The translations under genes were made by a program, and so were the position numbers. Positions 24,980 to 50,654 of a stretch of DNA of 64,000 nucleotides are shown here, piece after piece. Position 1 is the stretch's first letter. Every line of letters starts with the position of its first letter. The notes below the pieces were generated by a model. That model was given only the letters and a program-made list of their open reading frames with translations, was not told the origin of the DNA and made no database searches. The stretch is from assembly GCA_964527765.1 (NCBI GenBank), contig CAZGQR010000002.1, positions 50,986 through 114,985 on the forward strand, read 5' to 3'. Source of the stretch: an uncultured Planctomycetia bacterium (lineage in GTDB: Bacteria; Omnitrophota; Gorgyraeia; Tantalellales; Tantalellaceae).

Positions 24980-27109
24980 ATGGCAAAAATTAACCTTCCT
25001 AAAAAAGTCAGAAAAAGAGACGCCTCGGTTGTCAGATTCAACAGGGAAAAGATCCTAAAGGCGATCGAAAAGGCCGCGTTTGAAGTCCTGAAGAAAAAAG
25101 CCGATGCCCGTGCCGTATCTCAGACGGTGACCGACCGGGTGACCGATAAACTGTCCTCCCTGTATAAAGGTAAGATCCCGAGCGTCGAATCCATCCAGGA
25201 TATCGTGGAGATGGCCCTGATGAGCGAGGGGTACAGCCACATAGCCAGAAGCTATATCTTGCACCGGGAAAGGCATGCCGAGATCAGACAGGCGAAGTCG
25301 GCTCTGGGCCTCAAGGATGACCTGAAACTGCCGATAAATACCATAGAGGTATTGAAAAGAAGATATCTTCTGAAAGATGATAACAGGGATCTGGTAGAGA
25401 CCCCGAGCGAGCTCTTCAGGAGGGTGGCTTCGGCTGTTGCCCGGGCGGAGAAGGGCCTGAAGTCAGGGCCCGGCGTCAGGGAAACCGAAGAGAATTTCTA
25501 CGGGATGATGCGGGACCTGGAGTTCATGCCGAATTCGCCGACTCTCATGAACGCGGGCACTTCCCTGGGGCAGCTTTCCGCCTGTTTTGTCCTTCCGGTG
25601 GAGGATTCCATGGAAGGGATATTCGAAGCGCTGGGGAACATGGCCCGGATCCACCAGAGCGGAGGCGGCACCGGATTCAGTTTTTCAGGATTGAGGCCAA
25701 AAGGCGATCTTGTGAGCTCCACAAAGGGGGAGGCTTCCGGTCCGGTCTCGTTCATGAGCATATTTGACAAAGCCACGGGGATCATTGTCCAGGGCGGCAG
25801 AAGGCGCGGCGCCAACATGGGAATACTGCGCTGCGACCATCCCGACATCGTCGAGTTTATCGGAGCAAAGATAGAAAAGGACAAGTTCAGCAATTTTAAT
25901 CTGTCGGTGGGCATAACCGATAAGTTCATGGGAGCCGTCAGGAAGAACGGGGAATTTGACCTGGTGAATCCCCGCACCGGGCGAAGAGCGCGCAGGATAA
26001 AGGCAAGGGCCGTCTTTGATCTCATGGTCAACGCGGCCTGGAGGACAGGCGATCCGGGGCTGGTATTTCTGGACACGATAAACAGAAAAAACCCCACTCC
26101 GAGTATCGCAAGGATCGAAGCGACGAACCCCTGCGGGGAGCTGCCCCTCCTTCCGTATGAGAGCTGCAACCTGGCCTCTATAAATCTTGCGAAGATGGTG
26201 AAAGGGAGGTCCCCGGACTGGCGGAAGCTCGGGGACCGCGTGAGGTGGGGGATCCGGTTCCTGGATAATGTGATAGAGGTCAACAGGTTCCCTTTGGCGG
26301 AAATAAAAAGAATCACTTTCGCGAACAGGAAAGTAGGTCTCGGAGTAATGGGGTTTGCGGACATGCTTATAAAGCTGGGCATACCTTACGGTTCAAAAGG
26401 GGCCATCGAGCTTGCGGAAAAACTCATGCGGTTCATACACAGGCAGTCCATAAACGCCTCGGCGGGGCTGGCCGGGGAAAGAGGGGTTTTCCCGAATTTC
26501 AGAAAGTCCATCTACGCGAAAAGAAATTTGAGGCTGCGTAACGCCACGGTCAATACGATCGCTCCTACCGGCACGATAAGCATAATTGCCGGCTGTTCCA
26601 GCGGGATAGAGCCGCTGTTCGCCGTGAGTTTCGTGCGCAACGTGCTGTCCGGGGCGGAACTTTTTGAGGTCAACCCGATGTTCGAGAAGGCCGCCAGGGA
26701 AAAGGGCATTTACAGCAGGAAGATCCTCGCCGAGATCGCCGGAAAAGGTTCTTTAAAAGACATAAAAAATATCCCGGAGGGCCTGAAACGCGTTTTTGTC
26801 ACGGCGTTCGATATAAAAGCCGAAAAACACCTTCAGACCCAGGCAGCCTTCCAGAAGTATACGGATAATTCCGTTTCCAAGACGATAAACCTGCCTCCGG
26901 AGGCGACGATCGAGGACGTAGAGAAGATATACATGATGGCGCATAAATTAAAATGCAAGGGCATAACCGTTTACAGGTACGGGAGCAAGGATAACCAGGT
27001 GCTGACCTTCGGTTTCGGGGGGAAGGGCGGACAAGTAGGCGAGAGCGATTTACTTACCACCGATGCCGAATATTCCGGGGGATGCATGGCGCGCGCGTGC
27101 CCGTTTTAG
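24980..27109 (+). CDS. nrdJ: Adenosylcobalamin-dependent (class II) ribonucleotide reductase with N-terminal ATP-cone
   Basis: ATP-cone (VVRFNREKILKAIEKA), PTLMNAG, thiyl-radical region TNPCGELPL, and a C-terminal CxxC pair; 709 aa. Confidence 0.85.
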   Translation: MAKINLPKKVRKRDASVVRFNREKILKAIEKAAFEVLKKKADARAVSQTVTDRVTDKLSSLYKGKIPSVESIQDIVEMALMSEGYSHIARSYILHRERHAEIRQAKSALGLKDDLKLPINTIEVLKRRYLLKDDNRDLVETPSELFRRVASAVARAEKGLKSGPGVRETEENFYGMMRDLEFMPNSPTLMNAGTSLGQLSACFVLPVEDSMEGIFEALGNMARIHQSGGGTGFSFSGLRPKGDLVSSTKGEASGPVSFMSIFDKATGIIVQGGRRRGANMGILRCDHPDIVEFIGAKIEKDKFSNFNLSVGITDKFMGAVRKNGEFDLVNPRTGRRARRIKARAVFDLMVNAAWRTGDPGLVFLDTINRKNPTPSIARIEATNPCGELPLLPYESCNLASINLAKMVKGRSPDWRKLGDRVRWGIRFLDNVIEVNRFPLAEIKRITFANRKVGLGVMGFADMLIKLGIPYGSKGAIELAEKLMRFIHRQSINASAGLAGERGVFPNFRKSIYAKRNLRLRNATVNTIAPTGTISIIAGCSSGIEPLFAVSFVRNVLSGAELFEVNPMFEKAAREKGIYSRKILAEIAGKGSLKDIKNIPEGLKRVFVTAFDIKAEKHLQTQAAFQKYTDNSVSKTINLPPEATIEDVEKIYMMAHKLKCKGITVYRYGSKDNQVLTFGFGGKGGQVGESDLLTTDAEYSGGCMARACPF

Positions 27110-27163
27110 CGGGAGCGGCTCCCGGTCCAGCGGAAAATACGATAGCACGAGGGAGGTACGATC

Positions 27164-27598
27164 ATGAAATTAACGAGTCCGGAATTCGAAAATAAGGGAT
27201 CCATACCCTCAAAATTCACATGTGAGGGGGAAGACGTAAGCCCCGAACTTATTATCGATGATATCCCGCAAGATGCCGGGAGCCTGGCGCTGATCGTGGA
27301 TGATCCTGACGCCCCCATGGGGACCTGGGTCCACTGGGTGGTCTATGACATGCCCGCGATCTCAAAGATCGACGAGGGCGCTGTCCCGGGCAAACAGGGC
27401 ATCAACGATTTCGGAAAGAAAGACTACGGAGGGCCCTGTCCGCCGTCAGGGCGGCATCGCTACTTTTTCAAGCTATATGCCCTGGACAAGGAACTCGATC
27501 TGGATGAAGGGATCGACAAAAAAGCGCTGGAAAAAGCGATGGACGGGCATATACTCGCCCAGGCCGAACTGGTAGGGTTATATCAGCGCGGAAAATAG
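27164..27598 (+). CDS. YbhB/YbcL-family PEBP (Raf-kinase-inhibitor-like) protein
   Basis: LIVDDPDAP...WVHWVVYDM...GYGGPCPPSGRHRYFFKLYALD are classic PEBP motifs. Confidence 0.85.
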   Translation: MKLTSPEFENKGSIPSKFTCEGEDVSPELIIDDIPQDAGSLALIVDDPDAPMGTWVHWVVYDMPAISKIDEGAVPGKQGINDFGKKDYGGPCPPSGRHRYFFKLYALDKELDLDEGIDKKALEKAMDGHILAQAELVGLYQRGK

Positions 27599-27619
27599 AG
27601 CGGATTAGAGAGTCAAGGT

Positions 27620-27964
27620 ATGCATATTGACGCCTACTCATTCGGTTCCATGACAGTTAACGGCAGGACGTATACCTCGGATCTCATTGTCTTTCCTGAC
27701 AGGGTAGCTTCCGGCTGGTGGCGGATCGAGGGACACTCCCTGAGCGCGGAAGACCTGAAGGATGTCATAGTTTATAAGCCGGAAGTCCTGATCGTCGGCA
27801 AGGGCGCTTCCGGATGCATGAAGGTCCCCTTGTCCACGAGAAAAGCCCTGGAAGATAAGAACATCGAGATCATCGACAGGAATACGGGCGAAGCCTATGC
27901 CCTTTTTAATGAAGAGATCAAAAAGGGCAGGAGGGCTGTAGGCGCGTTCCATCTTACGTGTTAA
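27620..27964 (+). CDS. Mth938-like domain protein (DUF498)
   Basis: 114 aa; ...PEVLIVGKGASG...IEII pattern typical of the Mth938/NDUFAF3-like fold. Confidence 0.5.
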   Translation: MHIDAYSFGSMTVNGRTYTSDLIVFPDRVASGWWRIEGHSLSAEDLKDVIVYKPEVLIVGKGASGCMKVPLSTRKALEDKNIEIIDRNTGEAYALFNEEIKKGRRAVGAFHLTC

Positions 27965-28041
27965 ACCCGGCCTATTTCTTCAAGTCTTGAAAGAGCTTAC
28001 CGCCCCGGTTTATATATCCCGAGATTTACATGTTATTGCCC

Positions 28042-28091
28042 TTGACAGGGGAAAGAAAATGATGTAAAATTGATAATGGAAACCATTTTCA
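28042..28091 (+). promoter_or_regulatory. Sigma70 promoter (TTGACA-17-TAAAAT) with an overlapping Fur-box-like palindrome, upstream of the fur-family gene
   Basis: -35 TTGACA at 28042-28047, a 17-nt spacer, -10 TAAAAT at 28065-28070. Immediately after comes TGATAATGGAAACCATTTTCA at 28071-28091; GATAATGG...CCATTTTC is a near-perfect inverted repeat resembling the Fur consensus GATAATGATAATCATTATC. Confidence 0.6.
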
Positions 28092-28110
28092 ATAAGGAAG
28101 GCGGATAAAA

Positions 28111-28581
28111 ATGCCGGGGAGAAGAGTTACGGGCCTGCACCGGTGGCATGGAAGGTTCAGGGGGTGCGGCTACAGGATGACCGTTCCGAGGCAGGCGATA
28201 CTGGACGTTTTAACTAAGACATCCAAGCACCTGAGCGCCGAGGATATATACTTTGAAGTCCATAAGATCTATCCCCATGTCGGGCTTACAACGGTCTATC
28301 GCACGCTGGAACTTCTTGTCCAGATGGACCTGATCTTTAAGTTTGATTTCGGGGACGGCAGGGCGCGGTATGAACTGGCAGAAGGGCCGAAAGGCGCTCA
28401 TCACCACCATTTGATATGCGTGAAGTGTAAAAGGGTAATAGATTATACCGATTTCATGGATGAAGAGGCGGAGTTTCTGAAAAGAGCGGAGAAGGGCCTT
28501 GCCAAAAAGTATAAGTTCGAGGTAAAGGGCCATCTTATCCGATTTTACGGATTATGCGAGAAATGTAAAAGTAAAAAGTGA
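28111..28581 (+). CDS. fur: Fur-family metalloregulator (Fur/Zur/PerR type)
   Basis: DNA-binding helix region, HHHHLICVKCKRVIDY...GLCEKCK with both CxxC pairs; the actual start may be 28156 (MTVPRQAILDVL). Confidence 0.8.
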   Translation: MPGRRVTGLHRWHGRFRGCGYRMTVPRQAILDVLTKTSKHLSAEDIYFEVHKIYPHVGLTTVYRTLELLVQMDLIFKFDFGDGRARYELAEGPKGAHHHHLICVKCKRVIDYTDFMDEEAEFLKRAEKGLAKKYKFEVKGHLIRFYGLCEKCKSKK

Positions 28582-28588
28582 AGGGAAG

Positions 28589-28981
28589 GTGAGTACGATG
28601 CCAGGTGGAGACAGAACTGGTCCAAGGGGCTTAGGGCCCATGACGGGTAGAGCTGCCGGATATTGCGCCGGCTATTCCGTTCCCGGGTACATGAACCCGG
28701 TTACCGGAAGGGGATGGTTTGCTTATGGCAGAGGCCGCGGCGGCGGCCGCGGATGGCGGAACTGGTACTATGCCACGGGCATGCCCGGCTGGCAGAGAGC
28801 CGCGTACGGTTATCCGGCTTTTGGAGCGGGAACATATCCCTATCCGCCGGAACCGACGGTCGACGAGGAAAAAAGTATGCTGAAGGAAGAAGCGGAAATG
28901 CTCAAACAGCAGCTTGAGGACATCCAGGACCGTATAAGCACTCTCGAAAAAGCCCGGGATTCAGAAGAGAAAAAGAAGTAA
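28589..28981 (+). CDS. DUF5320-like Gly/Arg-rich small protein with C-terminal coiled coil
   Basis: MPGGDRTGPRGLGPMTGRAAGYCAGY...GRGRGGGRGW; KEEAEMLKQQLEDIQDRISTLEK coiled coil; strong GGAGG-type RBS. Confidence 0.55.
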   Translation: MSTMPGGDRTGPRGLGPMTGRAAGYCAGYSVPGYMNPVTGRGWFAYGRGRGGGRGWRNWYYATGMPGWQRAAYGYPAFGAGTYPYPPEPTVDEEKSMLKEEAEMLKQQLEDIQDRISTLEKARDSEEKKK

Positions 28982-29004
28982 GAGCTAAAGAGGAGGTATT
29001 TTCA

Positions 29005-29385
29005 ATGCGGATAGCCATATCTACAGATGGGGATAGTGTATCCCCGCATTTCGGGCGCTGTCCTTCTTTTACTATTGTTGATATTGAGGAAGGTAATATA
29101 ATAAAGAAAGAGACCGTCGACAATCCGGGGCACCATCCGGGTTTCCTGCCCCAGTTTTTGCGCGAAAGAAACGTTAATTATATCATTGCCGGCGGAATGG
29201 GACAAAGGGCGGTTCAGTTGTTCGCGCAAGAGGGGATCGAGATAATAGTCGGGGTCAGCGGTACGATCGATGACGTCATACGGAAGATCGCGAACGGCAC
29301 TCTCGAAGGAGGAGAGAGTTTATGTGAACCCGGCGCGGGAAAAGGATACGGGGTGGACAAGACCGAATGCGAGCATGAGGAATAG
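29005..29385 (+). CDS. NifX/NifB-C/NafY-like (dinitrogenase FeMo-cofactor-binding fold) domain protein
   Basis: MRIAISTDGDSVSPHFGRCPSFTIVDIEEG...NVNYIIAGGMGQRA; a single-domain 126 aa protein. Confidence 0.75.
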   Translation: MRIAISTDGDSVSPHFGRCPSFTIVDIEEGNIIKKETVDNPGHHPGFLPQFLRERNVNYIIAGGMGQRAVQLFAQEGIEIIVGVSGTIDDVIRKIANGTLEGGESLCEPGAGKGYGVDKTECEHEE

Positions 29386-29444
29386 AGAGTTCCCGTAAAC
29401 ATCCATCGGCCGAGGGCCCGAATTTTAACGAAGGAGGTAAGTTT

Positions 29445-29810
29445 ATGAAGATTTGCGTAACGGCACAGGGTGATAACCTGGATGCGCAGGTGGACCCCAG
29501 GTTCGGAAGGTGCCAGTACTTTATTTTTGTCGATACGGATACGCTCCAGTTTGAGGCGGTCGAGAATCCCAGCGCCGATGTCATGGGGGGAGCCGGGGTC
29601 GTGTCAGGCCAGCTCGTGGCGGGAAAACAGGTCAAAGCGGTGCTTACCGGCAATGTCGGACCCAACGCTTTTCAGACGCTGCAGGCGGCAGGGATCGATA
29701 TCATCACCGGCGCTTCCGGCAGCGTGAAAGAGGCGGTCGAGAAGTACGGGAAAGGCGAATTGAAGTCTACGGGGGATCCTACCGTCGGCCCCAAGTTCGG
29801 AGTACAGTAA
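29445..29810 (+). CDS. NifX/NifB-C-like domain protein (second copy)
   Basis: MKICVTAQGDNLDAQVDPRFGRCQYFIFVDTDT...VKAVLTGNVGPNA. Confidence 0.75.
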   Translation: MKICVTAQGDNLDAQVDPRFGRCQYFIFVDTDTLQFEAVENPSADVMGGAGVVSGQLVAGKQVKAVLTGNVGPNAFQTLQAAGIDIITGASGSVKEAVEKYGKGELKSTGDPTVGPKFGVQ

Positions 29811-29840
29811 ATAACGGATATTTTAAATCGGAGGTGTGAT

Positions 29841-30059
29841 ATGCCATTGGGAGATGGAACAGGCCCCCGCGGCCGGGGGCCGGGGACCGGAAGAGGTATG
29901 GGTAGAGGCGGCGGACGCGGACCCGGAGGAAGGCCGGGCGCCGGACCCGGCGGCAACTGTGTGTGCCCGAGCTGCGGAACAAAAGCTCCCCACAGGCCGG
30001 GAGTTCCCTGTGCTTCGATGAATTGTCCGAAATGCGGCGCGGGGATGGTAAGGGCATAG
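29841..30059 (+). CDS. Small Gly/Arg-rich protein with C-terminal CxxC...CxxC zinc ribbon (DUF5320-like N-terminus)
   Basis: [30 protein letters not shown]...[27 protein letters not shown]; GGAGG RBS upstream. Confidence 0.45.
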
Positions 30060-30062
30060 CAT

Positions 30063-30911
30063 ATGATCATATCGATTGCCAGCGGAAAAGGCGGCACCGG
30101 AAAGACCACGGTGGCCACGAGTCTCGCTCTTTCAATAGAGCGCGCCGTTCAATTTTTAGACTGTGATGTTGAAGAACCGAACGCGCACATCTTCATAAAG
30201 CCTGATATCGAGAGCACGCAGGCTGTTTTTATTCCCGTGCCCGAGATCGACGAATCCAAATGCGATTATTGCGGCAGGTGTCAGGAAGTCTGCGTTTACA
30301 ACGCGATCGCCGTTATCCCTCCCGCGGAAAAACCCGTCCGCGCGGGAAAAACGCTTATTTTCCCGGAGCTGTGTCACGGGTGCGGCGCCTGTTCTTATTT
30401 TTGCCCGAAAGGAGCCATAAAGGAGGTCAATAGACAAATAGGCGTTGTCGAAAAAGGCAAAAAGGAGGGACTGGAGTTCGTGCACGGCAGGCTCAATATC
30501 GGGGAACCGATGGCTCCGCCGCTGGTAAGAGCGGTCAGACGACATGTCGATCGCGCAAAAACCGTTATAATCGATGCTCCCCCGGGGACATCCTGCCCGG
30601 TCATCACTTCCATAAAGGATACGGATTACTGTATTCTTGTTACCGAACCCACTCCCTTCGGGCTTTACGACCTGATCCTGGCGGTCGAAGTTTTGAAGAA
30701 ACTGAAGATCCCTTTCGGTGTTATTATTAACCGCGCCGGCCTGGGCAACGATGAGACCGATAAGTATTGCAGGAAAGAGAATATCCCCGTTCTCATGAAG
30801 ATACCGTTCAGCAGGGAGATCGCAGCGGCTTATTCCAGGGGCACTGCTGTTGTCGAAGCATTCCCCGAGTATAGAGAACGCTTTATGAAAGTATTTAAGG
30901 ATATAAAATAG
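30063..30911 (+). CDS. MinD/Mrp-superfamily P-loop ATPase with inserted 2x[4Fe-4S] ferredoxin domain
   Basis: Deviant Walker A IASGKGGTGKTT; CDYCGRCQEVCVYNAI and CHGCGACSYFCPKGAI cluster motifs. Confidence 0.8.
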   Translation: MIISIASGKGGTGKTTVATSLALSIERAVQFLDCDVEEPNAHIFIKPDIESTQAVFIPVPEIDESKCDYCGRCQEVCVYNAIAVIPPAEKPVRAGKTLIFPELCHGCGACSYFCPKGAIKEVNRQIGVVEKGKKEGLEFVHGRLNIGEPMAPPLVRAVRRHVDRAKTVIIDAPPGTSCPVITSIKDTDYCILVTEPTPFGLYDLILAVEVLKKLKIPFGVIINRAGLGNDETDKYCRKENIPVLMKIPFSREIAAAYSRGTAVVEAFPEYRERFMKVFKDIK

Positions 30912-30912
30912 A

Positions 30913-31770
30913 ATGAAAGAGTTAGTGATCATAAGCGGTAAAGGCGGAACGGGTAAGACCATACTTACCGCGGCTTTCGCCTCTTTGGCCGAAAACAAGG
31001 TAATGGCTGATTGTGATGTGGACGCGGCGGACCTGCATCTCGTTTTAAAGCCTGCCGTAAAAGAGCGCCACCTGTTCAAGAGCGGGATGACGGCGCTTAT
31101 AGACAAGGGTCTCTGTACGGGGTGCGGGAAGTGTATCGATGTTTGCCGCTTTGATGCCATAGGCGAAGACTTTGTCGTGGATGCTGTCGCCTGTGAGGGC
31201 TGCGCTTTTTGCAGCCATGCGTGCCCGGAAGGGGCCATAAGGATGGAAGAGAACACCGCGGGTCAGTGGTTCATCTCCGACACGAGATTCGGTCCCATGG
31301 TCCACGCAAAACTGGGCATTGCCGAGGAAAATTCCGGCAAGCTTGTGAGCCTGGTCAAGAAAAAAGCCAGGGAGATAGCCGAGAGGCGGAACCTGGAATG
31401 GATAATTGTTGACGGCGCCCCCGGGATAGGGTGCCCGGTCATTGCCTCTATTTCCGGCGTCAGCTGCGCGCTGGTAGTGACCGAGCCGACCGTCTCGGGC
31501 CTGCACGATGCCGACCGGGTAATAAAAGTGGCCAGGCATTTCGGCGCCCCCGTAAGACTTGTGATCAATAAGTATGATTTAAATCCCGAGATGACGGAAA
31601 AGATCGAGGGATATTGCCGGGAGAACGATATACCGCTCGTAGGGAAAATACCTTTTGATGAATCTGTCGTAAAAGCTGTGGTGAGAGCTGAAACAGTGAT
31701 AGAATATTCTCACGGGCCGGCAGGACAGGAGATCAGGAAAATATGGGACAAGTTAAAAGTTGAAATTTAG
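30913..31770 (+). CDS. MinD/Mrp-superfamily P-loop ATPase with inserted ferredoxin domain (second copy)
   Basis: ISGKGGTGKT; CTGCGKCIDVCRFDAI and CEGCAFCSHACPEGAI. Confidence 0.8.
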   Translation: MKELVIISGKGGTGKTILTAAFASLAENKVMADCDVDAADLHLVLKPAVKERHLFKSGMTALIDKGLCTGCGKCIDVCRFDAIGEDFVVDAVACEGCAFCSHACPEGAIRMEENTAGQWFISDTRFGPMVHAKLGIAEENSGKLVSLVKKKAREIAERRNLEWIIVDGAPGIGCPVIASISGVSCALVVTEPTVSGLHDADRVIKVARHFGAPVRLVINKYDLNPEMTEKIEGYCRENDIPLVGKIPFDESVVKAVVRAETVIEYSHGPAGQEIRKIWDKLKVEI

Positions 31771-31786
31771 GGCCGGCGCCTGAAAA

Positions 31787-32416
31787 ATGAAATATATCCC
31801 CAAGTTAAATGATACGGAAATAGAAGATAATCACCGGCACTTTGAAGAAAGGGCCTCCGTCTATAAAAGAAAAGGGCTTGATTTCATGAAAAGCCGGGAG
31901 TTTATTATCGGGACCGCCGGCCCGCTGAAAGGCAGAGTGCTGGAGATAGGCGCGGGCAACGGCCATACCACGCTGGCGCTGGTGAAAATGGGATACAGGT
32001 TCACGGCGGTAGATAACGACAGGGAATCCCTGAAAATAACGGCCATGAACCTCGCTTACGAGAAAGCGCTGGATAGCGTCGAGCTTTATGTCATGGACGG
32101 GAGGTCGCTGACTTTCGCGGACGGCAGTTTCGACAGCGTAGTCATGGTGAACCTGTTCCATCACGTGAGTGACGTGGAAAGACTCCTTTCGGAAGCGGAC
32201 AGGGTTTTATGCGAAGGCGGCAAGCTTGTCCTGGCTGATTTTAACGGAAAAGGGATGGAAATAATAGGTTCCGTTCACGGACAGGAAGGGCGCACCCACG
32301 AAGATTCCGGCGTCAGCCGGGGCCGGGTATATTCTTACTTAAACGGTCTCGGCTACAAAACCGAAAGATACGACGAAGATCATCACTGGATCCTGATAGC
32401 GAAAAAAGCAAAATAG
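31787..32416 (+). CDS. Class I SAM-dependent methyltransferase
   Basis: VLEIGAGNGHTTLAL, motif I, Methyltransf_11-like. Confidence 0.7.
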   Translation: MKYIPKLNDTEIEDNHRHFEERASVYKRKGLDFMKSREFIIGTAGPLKGRVLEIGAGNGHTTLALVKMGYRFTAVDNDRESLKITAMNLAYEKALDSVELYVMDGRSLTFADGSFDSVVMVNLFHHVSDVERLLSEADRVLCEGGKLVLADFNGKGMEIIGSVHGQEGRTHEDSGVSRGRVYSYLNGLGYKTERYDEDHHWILIAKKAK

Positions 32417-32632
32417 ATGCAAGTAAGGGGTATGCGCAAAATGGCCTGCAAATGGTTCGATGTCTGCCCGCTCAAGAGATTTTACGAAGAAGGCAGGCTG
32501 CATGAAAAGTGGGTCAGGGGTTACTGCAAGGGCGATCATTCAAGATGCGTGAGGAAGAAGATGGAAGAAGACGGGACATATCACCCCGATAACATGCTCC
32601 CGGACGGAACGATCGATAAGAACCTGCGATGA
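32417..32632 (+). CDS. Small Cys/His-rich protein (71 aa), overlapping the radical SAM gene by 4 nt
   Basis: MACKWFDVCPLKRFYEEGRLHEKWVRGYCKGDHSRCVRKK; Cys at positions 11, 17, 37 and 44; its stop overlaps the downstream start (ATGA). Confidence 0.45.
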   Translation: MQVRGMRKMACKWFDVCPLKRFYEEGRLHEKWVRGYCKGDHSRCVRKKMEEDGTYHPDNMLPDGTIDKNLR

Positions 32633-33405
32633 CCAAAAGAAAATATAAATATATTTACGGACCGGTGCCTTCGTGGCGGCTCGGAAGTTCTCTCGGGGTG
32701 GACCCCATCCAGGGCAGGGAAAAGGTCTGCTCGTTCGATTGTCTTTATTGCCAGCTCGGCAGGACCGAGATCTTTACCGCCAGAAGAAAGAAGTTCGTCG
32801 CCACCTCCGAGGTCATGAAGGAAATAAATTCCCTGCCCCCGGTCAAGATCGATTACATAACGTTTTCAGGGATGGGCGAACCCACCCTGGCCAAAAATCT
32901 GGGCGAGATGATAAGGGCGGTCAAGAGGGCCAGGAAGGAAAAAGTGGCGGTGCTTACGAACGCCTCTCTTATGTACAGGAAAGATGTCCGGAGGGACCTG
33001 TTAAAAGCCGATCTTGTGGCGGTCAAGATGGACGCTTCTTCGGAAAAACTGTTGCGTAAAGTGAACAAGCCCACCGGGGGCATTACATTGGGGCGCATTG
33101 TAAGGTCCATAAAGGATTTTAAGGCCGCGTATAAGGGAAAACTTGCCCTGCAGATCATGTTCGTGAAAGAGAACGAGAAATACGCGAAAGAAATAGCGGG
33201 GATAGCGAAAGAGATCGGTCCGGACGAAGTTCAGATCAATACTCCCCTGCGGCCATGCGCAGTAAAGCCTTTAACAAGAAATAAGATCAGCAGGATCAAA
33301 AAGTATTTTCAGCCGTTGAATGCCGTTTCCGTTTATGAAAGCAGGCGTAAGAAGGTCAGGCCGATCAGCACGGAGGAAACCCTGAAAAGGAGAGGTAAGA
33401 TATAA
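32629..33405 (+). CDS. Radical SAM protein
   Basis: CSFDCLYCQ (Cx3Cx2C), with YGPVPSWRLGSSLGV at the N-terminus; 258 aa. Confidence 0.75.
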   Translation: MTKRKYKYIYGPVPSWRLGSSLGVDPIQGREKVCSFDCLYCQLGRTEIFTARRKKFVATSEVMKEINSLPPVKIDYITFSGMGEPTLAKNLGEMIRAVKRARKEKVAVLTNASLMYRKDVRRDLLKADLVAVKMDASSEKLLRKVNKPTGGITLGRIVRSIKDFKAAYKGKLALQIMFVKENEKYAKEIAGIAKEIGPDEVQINTPLRPCAVKPLTRNKISRIKKYFQPLNAVSVYESRRKKVRPISTEETLKRRGKI

Positions 33406-33851
33406 TGGGCACGATGAAATCGAAGAAGTTTAGTTACAGGTGTTCCGTCAGGTGGGCGGGAGAGAAAAAGGGCATACTCTCATCGGCGGGCAAGCCGGAT
33501 ATCGAGGTGGCCACGCCCCCCGAATTCAGGGGCCATGCGGGCATGTGGACCCCCGAAGAACTGTTCGTCGCTTCGGTCAATATCTGTATCAAGACCACGT
33601 TTCTGCATTATGCCGAGAAGAACAGTTTCGAGATCCTGAGCTATGAAAGCGACGCGGAAGGGGTCCTGGAAAAAGTAGGGGACCGGTTCATGTTCTCGGA
33701 GATAAATGTCAGGCCCAGGATCCGTGTCAGATCAGGCGCCGAGATCGATAAGGCAAAGGAATTTATAGGGCTTTCAGAGAAGAACTGTCTTATTTCCAAT
33801 TCCGTGGAATCCAGGGTCGAAGTTCTTGCTGAGATCAGCGCGGGAGGTTAG
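33405..33851 (+). CDS. OsmC/Ohr-family protein
   Basis: 148 aa; WTPEELFVASVNICIKTTFLHYA is the typical OsmC core. Confidence 0.65.
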   Translation: MGTMKSKKFSYRCSVRWAGEKKGILSSAGKPDIEVATPPEFRGHAGMWTPEELFVASVNICIKTTFLHYAEKNSFEILSYESDAEGVLEKVGDRFMFSEINVRPRIRVRSGAEIDKAKEFIGLSEKNCLISNSVESRVEVLAEISAGG

Positions 33852-34170
33852 AATGGCGGATTTTAAACAGATAGATGAAGCGAGGAGCCTGCTGGGGCTT
33901 GATGAAGATTCGACCCTGCAGGAAATAAGGAAGGCTTATCGAAGGCTTGCCTTGAAATATCATCCCGATAAGTGCAAGGAGAAAGACAAAAAGAAGTGCG
34001 AGGAAATGTTCAAAAAGATAAATCACGCCAATGGCATCATCCTGTCTTACTGCGCGAATTACAGGATCTCTTTTAAGGAAAAAAGCGTCAAGGAAACAAC
34101 GATGGATAAGGAGCTGTACGACCACCTGAAAAGGTTCTACGACGGCTGGTGGGGAAACCTGGATTTATGA
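33852..34170 (+). CDS. J-domain (DnaJ-like) protein
   Basis: LQEIRKAYRRLALKYHPDK carries the HPD motif; GGAGG RBS before the ATG at 33852. Confidence 0.75.
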
Positions 34171-34790
34171 GCGATTTTTTTGACGAGCATTACAAGCAGT
34201 ACGACGCATGGTACGACAGGAATAAATTCGCTTATTTGTCGGAACTGGAGGCCGTGAAGAAAGCCCTTCCCCGAGAAGGTCACGGGCTGGAGGTCGGGGT
34301 CGGTTCCGGGAGGTTCGCCGCTCCGCTGGGGATCGCGGTGGGCATCGACCCCTCGAAAAAAATGGTGGAACTTGCCAGGAAAAGGGGAGTGGACGCCCGC
34401 CCGGGCTCAGGTGAGGACCTTCCGTTTGAAGATGCCACCTTCGATTACGTGGCGATAATCGTTACATTGTGCTTTGTCGGCGATCCCGGACAGGTTATAG
34501 GGGAATCAGCAAGGGTCCTGAAGGGCCGCGGGAGGATCATCATCGGGATAGTGGATAAAGACAGCTTCCTGGGCGAGTCCTACCGGGAGAAAAAAAGCGT
34601 GTTTTACGGCCGCGCGCATTTCTTCAACGTTAAAGAAGTCACGTTAATGCTCAAGGAAGCGGGATTTGGCGAGTTCTCGTATTATCAGACCTTGTTTGAC
34701 CTGCCGGATAAAATGAGCTCCGTTGCGGAACCGCGGGAAGGTTTTGGCAAAGGCGGTTTTGTCGTTATCAGCGGGGTCAGACGCGGATGA
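34166..34790 (+). CDS. Class I SAM-dependent methyltransferase (Methyltransf_11)
   Basis: LEVGVGSGRFAAPLG motif I; the track ORF starts at 34149. Confidence 0.7.
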
Positions 34791-34875
34791 CCTATTTCTT
34801 TTCTTATCCCGGAGTATGGTGTATAATTTAACCGTTCATCGTGAAGCGTTTTTTTAATGTTACAAGGTCATCCGT

Positions 34876-36711: not shown

Positions 36712-36780
36712 TTTGTCTCGAATTTTCCGGCTGTTATTTTACCCCTCCGCAACGCTTTAAGGCGAGTCCAAAAATTCCGC

Positions 36781-36846
36781 TTGACAAGCCGATATAAAAG
36801 TATTATATTTGTGAAATCCGGAACGAAGTCTGTGAATATTATCACA
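36781..36846 (+). promoter_or_regulatory. Sigma70 promoter (TTGACA-17-TATATT) followed by a Rex operator (TGTGAATATTATCACA) immediately upstream of rex
   Basis: -35 at 36781-36786 and -10 at 36804-36809. An inverted repeat TGTGAA-N4-ATCACA at 36831-36846 matches the Rex consensus TTGTGAA-N4-TTCACAA; an extra half-site TTGTGAAAT lies at 36809. Confidence 0.6.
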
Positions 36847-36847
36847 A

Positions 36848-37480
36848 ATGATCATGAATGGAAAGAAAATACCCGAAAGCACCATCTCCCGTCTTTTTGT
36901 CTACCTGAGAGAGATTGCCGAACTTGCCAAATTGAACATACGCACGATCTCGTCCGCTGAATTGGGGGAGAGGACCAACCTGAGCGACGCTCAGGTCAGG
37001 AAGGATCTCGGGTATTTCGGGCAGTTCGGCGTGAGCGGTTCGGGTTATGATACGGCTGAACTTAAGAAAGCGCTGGAAAAGATACTCGGCAAGGACAAGA
37101 CCTGGAATGTCGCAGTTGTGGGCGTGGGGCATCTTGGTTCGGCCCTGCTTTCCTATACCGGGTTCGAGAGGCACGGGCTTGAAATAGTGGCCGCGTTTGA
37201 TACCGATCCGGAAAAGGTCGGCAAGCTGGACGGCCTGACCGTGCGGGCGATAGACGAGCTCCCGAAAACGGCGGCCGATAAAAAGATATCCATTGCCATC
37301 ATAGCGGTCCCGGCCGAAAACGCGCAGGAAGTAGCGGAGAGACTGGTCGGTGCGGGAGTTAAATGTATACTGAATTTCGCGCCCGTCAGCTTGAATACCC
37401 CGGAGGACGTTAAAGTCAAGAATGTCGATCTCTCGCGGGAGCTGGAAACATTATCGTATTTTCTGGTGAATAAAAAATAG
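36848..37480 (+). CDS. rex: Redox-sensing transcriptional repressor Rex
   Basis: PESTISRLFVYLREI..., the Rossmann region VAVVGVGHLGSALL, and ILNFAP; closely resembles Bacillus Rex. Confidence 0.9.
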   Translation: MIMNGKKIPESTISRLFVYLREIAELAKLNIRTISSAELGERTNLSDAQVRKDLGYFGQFGVSGSGYDTAELKKALEKILGKDKTWNVAVVGVGHLGSALLSYTGFERHGLEIVAAFDTDPEKVGKLDGLTVRAIDELPKTAADKKISIAIIAVPAENAQEVAERLVGAGVKCILNFAPVSLNTPEDVKVKNVDLSRELETLSYFLVNKK

Positions 37481-37495
37481 GCCAAAGATCCGAAA

Positions 37496-42935: not shown

Positions 42936-43534
42936 ACGGCGAGATCAAGGTCCGCATACAGGAAATGTCCGGGATCATCTCCGAGATGATCGATCTCGTT
43001 TTCCGGGGCTTTATGGAAAATGATATGCATATTCTTGACAAGAGCCTGGACAAGGAACGCGCGCTCGACGATCTGGAAAAAGAGATCACCGCCGGTATCG
43101 TGAAACTTTCCAAAGGGCTCAGCGACAGGGAAAGAAAGAAGCTTGTTATAGCGGGGCAGATCGCCGAGAATATCGAGCGCATGGGCGATGAACTGCGCTA
43201 TCTGACCGAACGCATCGAGCTCAAGATCGCGGATAAGCTTTATTTCAGCGATAAAGGGGTCGAGCAGTATAAGGAAGTTTTTGAGAAGATGCAGAGGTCG
43301 GTGAGCCTGATCGTGAGGTTCCTGGGTGACGATGATGCCGAGGTCCTGGATAAGGTCCTGGAGAACGGCGACCAGATCAAGGAATTGATCGAAAGATACA
43401 GGGCCGAGCATATCGACCGTCTGGCCAGGGGGATATGCGAGCCGAGGGCGGCGAACATGTATTTTGACATGCTTGATTTTACCGGGAACATCGCCAGGCA
43501 CTGCACGAATATAGCGAGGATCTCCAAAAAATAA
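42932..43534 (+). CDS. PhoU-domain protein (two PhoU-like repeats)
   Basis: QIAENIERMGDELRYL and FTGNIARHCTNIARI resemble the paired PhoU E(D)-x3-D/ERIGD...HATNIA motifs. Confidence 0.45.
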   Translation: MNGEIKVRIQEMSGIISEMIDLVFRGFMENDMHILDKSLDKERALDDLEKEITAGIVKLSKGLSDRERKKLVIAGQIAENIERMGDELRYLTERIELKIADKLYFSDKGVEQYKEVFEKMQRSVSLIVRFLGDDDAEVLDKVLENGDQIKELIERYRAEHIDRLARGICEPRAANMYFDMLDFTGNIARHCTNIARISKK

Positions 43535-50646: not shown

Positions 50647-50654
50647 ATCACTGA

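What the first reader, a model, noticed from the sequence alone, without database searches (positions are those of the whole stretch)
27965..31770. Fur-family-regulated cluster of small DUF5320-like proteins, tandem NifX/NifB-C-like proteins and tandem MinD-ferredoxin ATPases
Six consecutive, tightly spaced genes follow a fur-family regulator whose own promoter carries a Fur-box-like palindrome. The genes are 130 aa Gly/Arg-rich, two NifX/NifB-like domain proteins of 126 and 121 aa, a 72 aa Gly/Arg-rich protein with a zinc ribbon, and two P-loop ATPases with inserted 2x[4Fe-4S] ferredoxin domains of 282 and 285 aa. Each has a strong RBS.

NifX/NafY-fold proteins bind FeMo-co-type metalloclusters, and Mrp/MinD-type ATPases (NBP35/ApbC/CooC/HypB relatives) deliver metals or Fe-S clusters, yet no nitrogenase is encoded here. 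This layout suggests to me a dedicated metallocluster or metal-trafficking system of unknown client.

The [NiFe]-hydrogenase operon 5 kb downstream lacks hypB and has a zinc-finger-less hypA, so it is one candidate client. The two low-complexity G/R-rich proteins with CxxC ribbons are unusual and could be cluster-binding scaffolds or nucleic-acid-binding.
Basis: partly seen in the sequence, partly recalled or inferred. Interest (0 to 1): 0.7.

Follow-up and report, generated by a model that had tools for sequence, protein, structure and literature searches.

The report
Fur-regulated orange-protein (ORP) gene cluster
This is a version of the already described but still unexplained "orange protein" (ORP) iron-sulfur gene cluster of anaerobes. 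Here it is a single operon that starts with its own Fur-type metal-sensing repressor, which ties this widespread system to iron control.

Summary
A Fur-family gene (28111-28581) sits behind a near-consensus σ70 promoter overlapped by a Fur box. It is followed by a DUF5320 protein, two NifX-fold proteins, a 72-aa Gly/Arg plus Cys-ribbon protein and two MinD-type ATPases with 2x[4Fe-4S] inserts.

This is not an unknown system. It is an orp ("orange protein complex") cluster as described in Desulfovibrio. NifX-2's best solved match is the D. gigas orange protein. Both ATPases map one-to-one (44% and 51% identity) onto the ATPase pair beside close relatives of that protein.

What differs from the published system:
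- The regulator is a Fur-family clade with a canonical Fur box, not σ54/OrpR. That clade lies directly upstream of orp genes in 46 of 59 evaluable metagenome loci, often with a second box before them.
- DUF5320 is fused to the ORP domain in other phyla. [quoted passage not shown]
- The operon probably runs on to 34790 (two methyltransferases, radical SAM, OsmC, J-domain).

Most likely it is a metal-repressed Fe-S cluster handling or storage complex. The suggested hydrogenase client is unsupported. Verdict: new variant of a known kind, moderate interest.

The parts
28042..28070 (+). σ70-type promoter: TTGACA (28042-28047), 17-nt spacer, TAAAAT (28065-28070)
   Evidence: 11 of 12 matches, one of the two best sites in 27000-37500. 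The same TTGACA-17-TAnAAT layout precedes fur in L006, L008, L009 and L048.
28071..28094 (.). Fur-box operator TGATAATGGAAACCATTTTCAATA, overlapping the -10 hexamer and the likely transcription start. Palindrome arms are 28070-28079 and 28083-28092 (9 of 10 complementary).
   Evidence: Unique in the window, with 0 expected by chance. It scores 37.9 bits against a PWM built from 77 of 80 homologous fur upstream regions and is the only window site at or above 15 bits. It matches the classical Fur box at 15 of 19 positions; the clade consensus matches at 18 of 19 (my count).
28111..28581 (+). Fur-family repressor, 156 aa. It has a conserved N-terminal extension (WWHGRFRGxGYR), a TVYRTL recognition helix, an HHHHLxC motif and two CxxC pairs.
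   Evidence: PF01475 3e-31. Best NCBIfam match is Bacillus-type Fur at 129 bits, below the 220-bit equivalog cut-off. Best solved-structure hit is a 151-aa Fur at 2e-28. Clade conservation is shown.
28598..28981 (+). DUF5320 protein, 127 aa. An N-terminal 85 aa Gly/Arg/aromatic/Pro-rich basic region (pI 10.0) is followed by an acidic coiled coil.
   Evidence: PF17253 5.5e-30. Composition. The same domain is fused C-terminally to the ORP domain in L012, L013, L014, L017, L022, L043, L056 and L069.
29005..29385 (+). NifX-fold ('Di-Nase') protein 1, 126 aa. It is a free-standing equivalent of the C-terminal domain of MrpORP/Orp9, with HFGRC, NPGHHPG and C-terminal CEH motifs.
   Evidence: PF02579 1e-25. 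It hits NF041136 MrpORP only at model positions 265-364, 3e-30. The motifs compare with CxHFGHCE, TPPPHxPG and CDH described in PMC6345978. It is 36-41% identical to the second NifX-like gene of the D. gigas-type clusters.
29445..29810 (+). NifX-fold protein 2, 121 aa: ortholog of the orange protein (ORP/Orp8)
   Evidence: Best solved structure is 2WFB, the D. gigas ORP, at 1.5e-20 over nearly the full length. It is 42-44% identical to close ORP relatives in L165 and L166.
29841..30059 (+). 72-aa protein: a DUF5320-type N-terminus and Gly/Arg linker, then a Cys ribbon CxCPxCG...H...PC...CPxCG (6 Cys)
   Evidence: Conserved in 44 loci, usually just upstream of the first ATPase. 569 database clusters match at E<=1e-5. 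It is fused to the ORP domain in L008. It was missed by gene callers on the source contigs and is absent from the 15-billion-protein collection.
30063..30911 (+). MinD/Mrp-class deviant-Walker-A ATPase with an inserted 2x[4Fe-4S] ferredoxin domain, 282 aa. It is the ortholog of the first of the two ATPase genes beside ORP in the D. gigas-type clusters (the Orp3/Orp4 pair).
   Evidence: Pfam CbiA/ParA plus Fer4. Invariant cysteines and the GKGGTGKT motif are shown. It is 44-45% identical over the full length to the first ATPase of L165 and L166. AF2 model pLDDT is 80.7, and the nearest folds are MinD, FlhG, BchL, ApbC, NifH and Cfd1.
30913..31770 (+). Paralogous MinD-ferredoxin ATPase, 285 aa: ortholog of the second ATPase gene of the pair
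   Evidence: 34% identical to the first ATPase. 50-51% identical to the second ATPase of L165 and L166. The pair is adjacent in 73 of 80 genome loci.
31787..32416 (+). Class I SAM methyltransferase, 209 aa: a recurrent accessory member of the cluster
   Evidence: Methyltransf_11 4e-22. Orthologues above 100 bits lie inside orp clusters, usually just upstream of the first ATPase, in 11 loci (L006, L007, L011, L066, L069, L094, L106, L121, L136, L148, L161).
32441..32632 (+). 63-aa Cys-rich ORF (CKWFDVCP...YCKGD...C), function unknown
   Evidence: Called as a gene on the source contigs. No Pfam or NCBIfam hit. Homologues were found only in L005 and, fused to a uracil-DNA-glycosylase-like protein, in L025. 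Membership in the system is doubtful.
32629..33405 (+). Radical SAM protein, 258 aa, family unassigned
   Evidence: CxxxCxxC motif. The best NCBIfam hits (W-cofactor maturase, MoaA) fall far below their cut-offs. Homologues occur in 21 orp or fur loci; L018 and L023 score above 250 bits.
33405..33851 (+). OsmC/Ohr-family protein, 148 aa
   Evidence: PF02566 and NCBIfam peroxiredoxin-type hits. It overlaps the radical SAM stop codon by 1 nt. It is found near only one other locus.
33853..34170 (+). J-domain (DnaJ-like) protein, 105 aa
   Evidence: PF00226 1.7e-16. Homologues lie next to orp clusters in L115, L157 and L036.
34167..34790 (+). Second class I SAM methyltransferase, 207 aa: last gene of the packed block
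   Evidence: Methyltransf_11 5e-19. Homologues above 100 bits lie in or beside clusters in L115, L157, L118, L048, L018, L122 and L131.
34774..34803 (+). Terminator-like hairpin with a T-rich tail at the end of the block
   Evidence: It is followed by an 85-nt gap before the permease gene. This is a consensus match only.

Best explanation
The region is an orp-type ("orange protein complex") operon of an uncultivated anaerobe. Its nearest relatives are Omnitrophota MAGs.

Proposed layout and control:
- One σ70 promoter probably drives a 13-gene unit that begins with its own Fur-family repressor.
- With its metal bound (most likely Fe2+), the repressor should sit on the 21-24 bp Fur box covering the -10 hexamer and transcription start, and shut the operon off. 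It would release the DNA when the metal is scarce. This part is inferred.

Proposed complex:
- The two paralogous MinD/Mrp-class ATPases, each with a 2x[4Fe-4S] insert, should form an ATP-dependent heterodimer (inferred).
- Around it sit an orange-protein ortholog, a free-standing copy of the MrpORP Di-Nase domain, and two Gly/Arg-rich DUF5320-type partners, one of which carries a Cys ribbon.
- In other lineages these partners are fused to the ORP domain, like the cationic tail of IssA.

Proposed function (inferred): the NifX-fold proteins and the basic tails hold anionic iron-sulfide or metal-sulfide species. The ATPase-ferredoxin pair uses ATP and electrons to load, release or pass clusters to apo-proteins. 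The methyltransferases, radical SAM, OsmC and J-domain proteins would be accessory.

Shown here: identity and orthology of the parts, conservation of the cluster, the Fur-orp linkage, the conserved operator, and the fusions. Inferred: metal specificity, repression, the complex itself and its biochemical role.
For: - Orthology to the ORP system.
- Published biochemistry of the homologous complex. Orp3-Orp4-Orp8 co-purify, MrpORP transfers Fe-S to them, and its Di-Nase domain binds a [3Fe-4S] cluster (PMC6345978).
- Conservation of the core in 80 of 80 genome loci from bacteria and archaea: ATPase pair in 73, ORP-like in 69, second NifX in 67, DUF5320 in 38, 72-aa type in 34, true Mrp/NBP35 in up to 34.
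- Fur clade linkage: 46 of 59 evaluable loci have orp genes within 1.5 kb downstream.
- Operator: present upstream of fur in 77 of 80 loci, with consensus TGaTAATGAAAATCATTaTCAATA. A second copy lies between fur and the orp genes in more than 20 loci.
- Fur-like features: TVYRTL helix, HHHH motif and CxxC pairs; the best hits are bona fide Fur proteins.
- ORP-DUF5320 and ORP-Cys-ribbon fusions.
- Tail composition close to that described for IssA. Window tail: 85 aa with G 22, R+K 9, aromatic 16, P 10, one Cys, pI 10.0. IssA tail: 70 aa with G 15, cationic 7, aromatic 14, P 11, one Cys, pI 10.7.
- Tight packing of the block and a terminator-like site at 34774.
Against: - No function of any ORP complex is established. 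The published hypothesis is a role in cell division.
- The as-isolated D. gigas orange protein carries a Mo-Cu sulfide cluster, not Fe-S.
- The window has no Mrp/NBP35 partner.
- The IssA parallel rests on composition and domain architecture, not on sequence homology of the tails.
- Fur-type repression would raise the level of an Fe-S-rich complex under iron scarcity. That fits a mobilisation or assembly role (E. coli suf is a precedent, from general knowledge) but not simple storage.
- The box is a canonical Fur box, so this may be the cell's general Fur that merely resides beside orp.
- Only 4-8 of 80 genome orp loci have a Fur-family gene; 20 of 80 have a DUF134 gene instead.
- Co-transcription through to 34790 is not shown.
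Confidence: 0.6

Rival explanations
1. Cell-division or cell-pole positioning system. The two MinD-like ATPases act as membrane-associated spatial regulators, and the Fe-S and NifX parts only tune them to redox or metal state. This is the published working hypothesis for Desulfovibrio.
For: - Loss of OrpR gives morphological defects in D. vulgaris, and the Orp proteins are described as putatively involved in cell division.
- MrpORP is polar, and Orp3/Orp4 are reported to have a MinD-like C-terminal amphipathic helix.
- The window ATPase model ends in a helix at 269-281 (ERFMKVFKDIK), and its nearest solved fold is MinD.
Against: - No MinC, MinE, FtsZ or other division genes were recognised in the window or picked up near the clusters.
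- The conserved partners are all cluster-binding proteins or Mrp/NBP35 Fe-S carriers.
- A Fur-box regulator argues for a metal rather than a cell-cycle signal.
- Fold similarity is equally strong to NifH, BchL, ApbC, Cfd1 and CooC.
Confidence: 0.15
2. Molybdenum or tungsten sulfide (thiometalate) handling. The ORP-type protein binds Mo/W-S-Cu clusters for Mo/W storage, Mo-Cu detoxification or supply to Mo/W enzymes. The radical SAM protein would act in cofactor maturation.
For: - The orange protein as isolated holds an [S2MoS2CuS2MoS2] cluster.
- The window radical SAM's best, though weak, NCBIfam hits are a tungsten-cofactor maturase and MoaA.
Against: - Those hits are far below cut-off (55 bits against 380).
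- No mod/tup transporter, ModE or Mo/W enzyme genes turned up among the window genes annotated.
- The regulator and its box are Fur-type.
Confidence: 0.12
3. The regulator is a PerR-like peroxide or redox sensor rather than an iron sensor, and the operon is an oxidative-stress response. This would parallel the redox control by OrpR in Desulfovibrio.
For: - PerR models score second best (95 bits), and B. subtilis PerR is among the structure hits.
- The operon contains an OsmC/Ohr-type peroxidase.
- OrpR switches orp genes according to redox potential.
Against: - The recognition helix reads TVYRTL as in the Fur-type top hit, not TVYNNL as in B. subtilis PerR (the PerR sequence is from memory).
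- The operator carries the G and C that distinguish Fur boxes from PerR boxes, and the clade consensus matches the Fur box at 18 of 19 positions.
- Fur models and structures score best.
Confidence: 0.15
4. Maturation system for the downstream [NiFe] hydrogenase. The MinD-type ATPases would replace the missing HypB and work with the Zn-finger-less HypA.
For: - No HypB was found in the window, HypA is truncated and HypF is C-terminal only.
- Mrp/MinD-type 'ATPase-type HypB' of Thermococcus is among the sequence and fold matches.
Against: - Those matches are no better than those to MinD, NifH, ApbC or Cfd1.
- The ATPases are one-to-one orthologs of the ORP-cluster pair.
- The hydrogenase large subunit and HypD are essentially absent from the flanks of 160 related loci.
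- About 5.7 kb of other genes, plus a separate strong promoter at 36781 and a Rex-type regulator, separate the two units.
- HypB may simply lie outside the 64-kb window.
Confidence: 0.03
5. Nitrogenase-type complex cofactor (NifB-co or FeMo-co-like) assembly line: radical SAM plus NifX-fold carriers plus NifH-like ATPases.
For: PF02579 is the NifB/NifX/NafY domain. A radical SAM gene is in the block, and NifH and BchL are fold neighbours of the ATPase.
Against: - No nifHDK, nifEN or nitrogenase-like genes were seen in the window.
- The NifX-fold proteins group with ORP, MTH1175 and PH0822, not with NifX or NafY structures.
- The radical SAM protein gives no NifB hit.
- The radical SAM gene is present in only about a quarter of the clusters.
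Confidence: 0.03

Closest known systems
Orange protein (ORP) complex and orp operons of Desulfovibrio vulgaris Hildenborough (Orp3, Orp4, Orp5, Orp8, Orp9/MrpORP; Fievet 2011; PMC6345978; PMC8359166)
   Same: - An ORP/Orp8 ortholog is present.
- There are two adjacent paralogous MinD-type ATPases with 2x[4Fe-4S] motifs.
- A second Di-Nase domain like that of Orp9 and a small Cys-rich protein are present.
- The host is an anaerobe.
- The ORP-plus-two-ATPases core is shared.
   Different: - The genes form one collinear operon instead of two divergent ones.
- Control is by a σ70 promoter and a Fur-family repressor instead of σ54, OrpR and IHF.
- The Di-Nase domain is free-standing, and no Mrp/NBP35 domain is present in the window.
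- There are two DUF5320-type proteins.
- Extra methyltransferase, radical SAM, OsmC and J-domain genes follow.
- Equivalence of the 72-aa protein to Orp5 was not tested.
IssA, the thioferrate iron-sulfur storage protein of Pyrococcus furiosus (PMC5524996)
   Same: - It has the same IPR003731/PF02579 globular domain.
- That domain is associated with a basic, Gly/Arg/aromatic/Pro-rich, probably disordered segment of very similar composition.
- MTH1175, placed in the IssA clade by its authors, is a near-top match of the window's ORP-like protein.
   Different: - In the window the tail-like segment is on separate polypeptides (DUF5320 and the 72-aa protein) and is followed by a coiled coil or a Cys ribbon.
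- The text search of the IssA paper found no mention of an operon or an Mrp-type ATPase.
- Thioferrate binding is untested here.
Mrp/NBP35/ApbC/Cfd1 Fe-S carrier ATPases, and NifH/BchL
   Same: They share the SIMIBI-class fold, the deviant Walker A with a signature lysine, and probably dimer-dependent function (inferred). They are fold neighbours of the window ATPase. True Mrp genes are frequent members of related clusters.
   Different: - The window ATPases carry a ferredoxin domain inserted after the P-loop region. No solved structure in the searches has this.
- They lack the Mrp CxxC motif.
- They have an invariant Cys in DAPPGTSC instead.
Classical Fur and Fur-box control of Fe-S assembly genes (for example E. 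coli suf; general knowledge)
   Same: The Fur-family fold and metal-site residues are present. The 19-bp GATAATGATAATCATTATC-type box overlaps the promoter. Autoregulation is likely.
   Different: - The protein scores below the NCBIfam equivalog cut-offs for Fur.
- It has a clade-specific N-terminal extension.
- Its gene is physically tied to orp genes across several phyla.

Membership tests
ORP (orange protein) operon/complex | Single-domain PF02579 protein orthologous to the orange protein (Orp8; D. gigas ORP) | tested here: met
   2WFB is the best solved match (1.5e-20, full length). The window protein is 42-44% identical to proteins that are 68-74% identical to D. gigas ORP.
ORP (orange protein) operon/complex | Two adjacent paralogous MinD-type ATPases, each with two [4Fe-4S] ferredoxin motifs (Orp3/Orp4) | tested here: met
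   One-to-one best matches of 44-45% and 50-51% identity to the ATPase pair in the D. gigas-type clusters L165 and L166.
ORP (orange protein) operon/complex | MrpORP/Orp9: an Mrp/NBP35 P-loop domain fused to a Di-Nase domain | tested here: not met
   Only the Di-Nase part is present. NF041136 is hit at model positions 265-364 with 106 bits against a 450-bit cut-off. No Mrp-type gene is found in the window by tblastn. Split Mrp plus Di-Nase genes are common in relatives.
ORP (orange protein) operon/complex | Small Cys-rich Fe-S protein (Orp5 / Dde_3197 type) | tested here: inconclusive
   A conserved 72-aa, six-Cys protein is present. The small Cys protein in the D. gigas-type clusters is a Zn_ribbon_8 protein with no detected similarity to it.
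ORP (orange protein) operon/complex | σ54 promoter with the OrpR enhancer-binding protein and IHF | tested here: not met
   A σ70-type promoter and a Fur-family gene are found instead. No σ54 activator lies next to the cluster in the window.
ORP (orange protein) operon/complex | Physical complex of the gene products | not testable with these tools
   Needs co-purification. Domain fusions in relatives support interaction of ORP with the DUF5320, Cys-ribbon and Di-Nase parts.
Fur family (iron-responsive Fur proper) | Fur domain with a winged helix, a structural CxxC...CxxC site and His-rich regulatory sites | tested here: met
   PF01475 108 bits. C103, C106, C149, C152, H40, H97-100 and H141 are invariant among five orthologs from different phyla.
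Fur family (iron-responsive Fur proper) | Cognate Fur-box operator at a regulated promoter | tested here: met
   28071-28094. The window site matches at 15 of 19 positions and the clade consensus at 18 of 19 to GATAATGATAATCATTATC (consensus from general knowledge; my count).
Fur family (iron-responsive Fur proper) | Scores as a Fur equivalog in NCBIfam | tested here: not met
   Best score is 129 bits against a 220-bit cut-off (TransRegFurBacil). PerR scores 95 against 180 and Zur 37 against 167.
Fur family (iron-responsive Fur proper) | Fe2+-dependent DNA binding and repression | not testable with these tools
   Requires EMSA, footprinting or expression data.
IssA-type iron-sulfur storage protein | IPR003731/PF02579 domain followed on the same chain by a cationic Gly/aromatic-rich tail | tested here: not met
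   Both window NifX-fold proteins lack such a tail. The tail-like sequence is on separate DUF5320 proteins. Fused forms do exist in related loci.
IssA-type iron-sulfur storage protein | Forms thioferrate nanoparticles and reconstitutes ferredoxin | not testable with these tools
   Biochemical property (PMC5524996).
DUF5320 (PF17253) | Match to the Pfam model above the gathering score | tested here: met
   The 130/127-aa protein scores 104.9 bits against a cut-off of 27. The 72-aa protein gives no hit itself at E<=0.01, although about 13 of its 120 listed homologues carry PF17253.
NifX/NafY/NifB nitrogenase cofactor proteins | Association with nitrogenase or nifEN genes, and a NifB-type radical SAM domain | tested here: not met
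   No nif genes were seen among the window genes annotated. The radical SAM protein gives no NifB hit.
HypB-type Ni-insertion ATPase | Genomic or functional coupling to [NiFe]-hydrogenase maturation genes | tested here: not met
   The hydrogenase large subunit and HypD are essentially absent from 160 related loci. Similarity to ATPase-type HypB is generic.

The most novel reading that the evidence does not exclude
The orange-protein complex and IssA may be two faces of one ancient, widespread anaerobe system for storing and mobilising iron sulfide. This would be a further general Fe-S handling machine beside ISC, SUF and NIF. In this reading:
- NifX-fold ORP domains plus detachable or fused cationic DUF5320 tails nucleate anionic Fe-S species.
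- The Orp3/Orp4 ATPase-ferredoxin heterodimer, with Mrp/NBP35 and a J-protein where present, reductively releases clusters to apo-proteins.
- In several phyla the cell's Fur gene is built into the operon, so the store is opened when iron runs short.
Probability: 0.2. Interest if true: 0.75.

Novelty: new variant of a known kind. Interest (0 to 1): 0.45.

Why it matters
The ORP cluster is among the most widespread conserved gene sets of strict anaerobes. The ATPase family alone returned more than 8000 hits at 1e-10, from Omnitrophota and Dehalococcoidia to Methanosarcina and Asgard archaea. Even so, its function has stayed open since 2011.

Two results here make that question more testable:
- A Fur-family clade with a canonical Fur box is hard-wired to orp genes in several phyla. 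This predicts a simple and easily tested signal (iron) for a system whose only known regulator so far was a redox-sensing σ54 activator.
- DUF5320, a family of unknown function, turns out to be a separable tail of the ORP domain with the chemistry of the IssA thioferrate-binding tail. This links two literatures and suggests concrete binding experiments.

If neither prediction holds, the locus is simply one more orp cluster.

Tried and rejected
- Literature search for DUF5320 gave nothing relevant. Searches for COG1149, COG1433 and for the Fur regulon combined with the NifX domain name found no paper on this linkage. No ORP-complex papers after 2021 are in the library. Fievet 2011 itself is not held.
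- I tried to obtain the D. vulgaris orp locus. The single genome-contig scan returned only the 80 best loci, none from Desulfovibrio. As a proxy I used close relatives of the D. gigas ORP found through its PDB sequence. Orp5 and Orp7 equivalence therefore stays untested.
- Looser Fur-box patterns in the window gave only weak, probably chance sites. One example is 1966-1986, inside a histidine-kinase gene.
- Hydrogenase client idea: rejected on co-occurrence.
- NifB-like cofactor line: rejected.
- The first control in the operator PWM test was contaminated, because random segments overlapped the operators themselves. I relied instead on the site positions and the whole-locus scan.
- Foldseek of the ATPase model only places it in the MinD/Mrp/NifH class. 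No solved structure has the ferredoxin insert.

Full report
**1. What is there.**

Pfam confirms them:
- a Fur-family protein (PF01475, 3e-31);
- a DUF5320 protein (PF17253, 5.5e-30);
- two Nitro_FeMo-Co/NifX-fold proteins (PF02579, 1e-25 and 4e-24);
- two CbiA/ParA-type P-loop ATPases with Fer4 domains.

The 72-aa ORF has no Pfam hit. The two ATPases are 34% identical. They share a deviant Walker A (SGKGGTGKT), two CxxCxxCxxxC motifs inserted after the P-loop region, and three further invariant cysteines (C34, C178, C236). The two NifX-fold proteins are 31% identical to each other.

The first five genes have GGAGG-type ribosome-binding sites. The ATPases follow with gaps of 3 and 1 nt.

**2. 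Promoter and operator.**

The best σ70-like site in 10.5 kb is TTGACA-17-TAAAAT at 28042-28070. The sequence TGATAATGGAAACCATTTTCA follows directly at 28071-28091. It is unique in the window, with none expected by chance. Its geometry is that of the classical Fur box. By my count it matches GATAATGATAATCATTATC (consensus from general knowledge) at 15 of 19 positions.

**3. It is the orange-protein (orp) cluster.**

NCBIfam gave the lead. The first NifX-fold protein matches the C-terminal Di-Nase domain of MrpORP (NF041136, 3e-30, model positions 265-364). The second NifX-fold protein has the Desulfovibrio gigas orange protein, 2WFB, as its best solved relative (1.5e-20, nearly full length).

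The literature describes the ORP complex of D. vulgaris as Orp3 and Orp4 (paralogous ATPases with two [4Fe-4S] motifs each), Orp5 (small Fe-S protein), Orp8 (orange protein) and Orp9/MrpORP. These are encoded by two divergent σ54/OrpR/IHF-dependent operons, and the function is still unclear.

I then searched with the D. gigas ORP sequence and fetched contigs of close relatives (68-74% identical). Their layout is [DUF134 regulator]-[Gly/Gln/Arg-rich protein]-ORP-ATPase-ATPase-NifX-Zn-ribbon. The window proteins are reciprocal best matches of these genes:

| Window protein | Match in L165/L166 | Identity |
|---|---|---|
| ATPase 1 | first ATPase | 44-45% |
| ATPase 2 | second ATPase | 50-51% |
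| NifX-2 | ORP | 42-44% |
| NifX-1 | second NifX | 36-41% |

The motifs of NifX-1 (HFGRC, NPGHHPG, C-terminal CEH) resemble the CxHFGHCE, TPPPHxPG and CDH motifs reported for the MrpORP Di-Nase domain.

The window lacks an Mrp/NBP35 gene. In many related clusters a true Mrp (PF10609, about 300-340 bits) sits next to a 112-aa NifX-1-like gene, which is a split MrpORP.

**4. Conservation.**

The ATPase family is very large, with more than 8000 hits at 1e-10. The nearest relatives are Omnitrophota MAGs. The window is identical to metagenome contigs of up to 240 kb.

A scan of one genome per species returned 80 loci. They come from Omnitrophota, Clostridia, Dehalococcoidia, Desulfobacterota, Planctomycetota and Acidobacteriota, and from archaea including Bathyarchaeia, Methanosarcina, Thor- and Heimdallarchaeota. 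Searching their six-frame ORFs with the window proteins gave these counts out of 80 loci:

| Component | Loci |
|---|---|
| ATPase pair | 73 |
| ORP-like gene | 69 |
| Second NifX-like gene | 67 |
| DUF5320 | 38 |
| 72-aa type | 34 |
| Low-scoring MinD-like (Mrp-like or other P-loop) ORF | 34 |
| Radical SAM | 15 |

The six-gene order is therefore a conserved unit, not a chance juxtaposition.

**5. The regulator is the distinctive part.**

The same Fur-first layout occurs in an Omnitrophota, a Clostridia, a WOR-3 and a Eubacteriales genome (L006, L008, L009, L048). These regulators are 51-70% identical to the window's. They share a conserved N-terminal extension, the TVYRTL helix, HHHH, and two CxxC pairs.

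A metagenome scan with their alignment returned 80 loci at 50-75% identity. In 46 of the 59 loci with at least 700 bp downstream, orp components follow within 1.5 kb on the same strand.

An operator of consensus TGaTAATGAAAATCATTaTCAATA was found upstream of fur in 77 of 80 cases. It ends about 15 nt before the start codon and matches the classical Fur box at 18 of 19 positions. In more than 20 loci a second copy lies in the spacer between fur and the DUF5320 or orp genes. The regulator therefore very probably controls the orp genes directly. In the window that spacer is only 16 nt, so a single promoter serves both.

The protein resembles bona fide Fur most closely: 129 bits to the Bacillus Fur model and 2e-28 to the top-scoring solved Fur. 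It stays below the equivalog cut-offs. A PerR-type sensor is not excluded, but the helix and box features favour Fur.

Among orp clusters in general the Fur type is a minority (4-8 of 80), and DUF134 genes are more common (20 of 80). In one locus feoB lies directly upstream of fur.

**6. DUF5320 and the 72-aa protein.**

Fusions in related loci:
- the ORP domain is fused to a Gly/Met/Arg repeat plus coiled coil that scores as PF17253 above the gathering cut-off in 8 of the 10 fused proteins scanned;
- in L008 (Clostridia) the ORP domain is fused to a Gly/Arg linker plus the very Cys ribbon of the 72-aa protein;
- in Desulfobacterales it is fused to tail, coiled coil and a second Di-Nase domain;
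- in L069 it is further fused to a ferredoxin.

The basic part of the window's DUF5320 protein is 85 aa with G 22, R+K 9, aromatic 16, P 10, one Cys and pI 10.0. It has almost the composition reported for the 70-aa tail of P. furiosus IssA: G 15, cationic 7, aromatic 14, P 11, one Cys and pI 10.7. That tail is proposed to wrap anionic thioferrate. This is an analogy of chemistry and architecture, not shown homology.

The 72-aa gene is real. It is conserved in 44 loci with an invariant CxCPxCG...H...PC...CPxCG pattern, and 569 database clusters match it. Gene callers missed it on every contig carrying this locus, and the exact sequence is absent from the 15-billion-protein collection although all of its neighbours are present.

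**7. Extent.**

After the second ATPase the same strand continues with gaps of -4 to 24 nt through six more genes:
- a SAM methyltransferase;
- a 63-aa Cys-rich ORF;
- a radical SAM protein;
- an OsmC-type protein;
- a J-domain protein;
- a second methyltransferase.

The block ends at a terminator-like hairpin at 34774.

The first methyltransferase is inside orp clusters in 11 other loci. Radical SAM homologues are in 21 loci, the second methyltransferase in about 7, and the J-domain protein in 3. The OsmC and Cys-rich genes are not conserved there. The likely unit is therefore 28071 to about 34800, with a firm core to 31770 and a variable accessory tail. Co-transcription is inferred only.

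**8. How it probably works.**

The statements below are inference, built on the parts list and on the published biochemistry of the homologous proteins. In that work Orp3-Orp4-Orp8 co-purify, receive Fe-S from MrpORP, and the Di-Nase domain binds a [3Fe-4S] cluster.

- The two ATPases should form an ATP-dependent heterodimer with four ferredoxin-type clusters.
- They may also share a further site. The AF2 model is least confident exactly at the invariant-Cys loop 174-181. That Cys lies 7 residues after the Walker B Asp, the same spacing as the cluster ligand Cys132 of NifH (from memory, untested).
- The NifX-fold proteins and basic tails would hold anionic metal-sulfide species.
- The operon would be repressed by the metal-loaded Fur protein and induced on metal scarcity. 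This resembles the Fur-repressed suf genes of E. coli (general knowledge).

My confidence is about 0.9 that this is an orp-type cluster, about 0.75 that the Fur-family protein represses it through the box, and about 0.4 that the role is Fe-S storage or transfer.

**9. Rivals.**

- A MinD-like cell-division role is the published hypothesis and cannot be excluded. The conserved partners and the Fur-type control argue against it.
- Mo/W-sulfide handling is suggested by the Mo-Cu cluster of the isolated orange protein, but nothing in the window's context supports it.
The window's hydrogenase large subunit and HypD are essentially absent from 160 related loci. The hydrogenase has its own promoter and a Rex-type regulator. 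The fold similarity to ATPase-type HypB is generic.
- A nitrogenase-like cofactor line is not supported.

**10. Verdict.**

Three points look new relative to the papers I could read:
- the Fur-type regulatory variant with its conserved single or double Fur box;
- DUF5320 as a separable tail of the ORP domain;
- the recurrent accessory genes.

I rate it a new variant of a known kind, with moderate interest.

Noticed in passing
window 29841-30059: The conserved 72-aa Gly/Arg plus Cys-ribbon gene is not called on any of the public contigs that carry this locus. Its exact sequence is absent from the 15-billion-protein collection, although every neighbouring protein is present. It appears to be systematically missed by gene finders at this locus.
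   Followed up: yes
L006 5529, L009 1627, L085 787, L086 1883, L090 862, L092 509, L093 6480, L097 1067, L100 4340, L102 613, L148 4105, L161 5519 and others: Many relatives carry a second Fur box in the spacer between fur and the first orp gene. This implies a separate, Fur-controlled promoter for the orp genes. The window has only a 16-nt spacer and one box.
   Followed up: yes
L012, L013, L014, L017, L022, L024, L029, L036, L043, L048, L056, L069, L008: Multi-domain fusions occur in relatives: ORP domain plus DUF5320; ORP plus Gly/Arg linker plus the 72-aa protein's Cys ribbon (L008); ORP plus DUF5320 plus a second Di-Nase domain (L013, L024, L029); ORP plus DUF5320 plus a 2x[4Fe-4S] ferredoxin (L069).
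   Followed up: yes
window 28111-28180 (residues 1-23 of the Fur-family protein): This Fur clade has a conserved basic and aromatic N-terminal extension (..WWHGRFRGxGYRxT..), conserved at 60% or more across 83 sequences. Its role is unknown.
   Followed up: partly
window 50404-54061: The hyp region is unusual. It has an 80-aa HypA-like ORF starting MHETH without the CxxC zinc knuckles, a 359-aa HypF consisting only of the C-terminal Kae1-like domains, and then HypC, HypD and HypE. No HypB was found among the ORFs scanned in the window.
   Followed up: partly
window 42932-43534: A PhoU-domain protein (200 aa) is encoded inside the group-4 membrane-bound [NiFe]-hydrogenase operon, between the large subunit and the first antiporter-like subunit.
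   Followed up: no
window 36781-37480: A second near-consensus promoter (TTGACA-17-TATATT) precedes a Rex-type regulator (Put_DNA-bind_N plus CoA_binding). This regulator heads the hydrogenase gene block, which suggests NADH/NAD+ control of that operon.
   Followed up: no
window 54134-58579: NikR, an OprB-family porin and a CbiM/PDGLE/CbiQ/ABC (Nik/Cbi-type) transporter follow the hyp genes. This is a nickel-supply module for the hydrogenase.
   Followed up: no
window 32441-32632; L025 4574-5338: The 63-aa Cys-rich ORF before the radical SAM gene (CKWFDVCP...YCKGD...C) recurs as the C-terminal domain of a uracil-DNA-glycosylase-like protein in a Thermoplasmatota MAG. It is therefore probably an independent small Fe-S or metal module rather than an orp component.
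   Followed up: partly
window 27620-27964: A DUF498 protein (PF04430) lies just upstream of the fur promoter. From memory this is the Mth938/NDUFAF3-type family, which is interesting next to a complex-I-like hydrogenase. It is not conserved with orp clusters elsewhere.
   Followed up: no
L110 148-1737: A FeoB-like ferrous-iron transporter gene (judged from the ORF sequence; not scanned against family models) lies directly upstream of the fur-orp unit in one metagenome locus. A CGGC-motif protein with its own Fur box precedes fur in L093 at 5270-5678.
   Followed up: partly
window 1966-1986: TGATCATGGCGACCATTTTCC resembles the operator at 17 of 21 positions, but it lies inside a histidine-kinase ORF and scores below 15 bits with the PWM. 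It is probably chance.
   Followed up: partly
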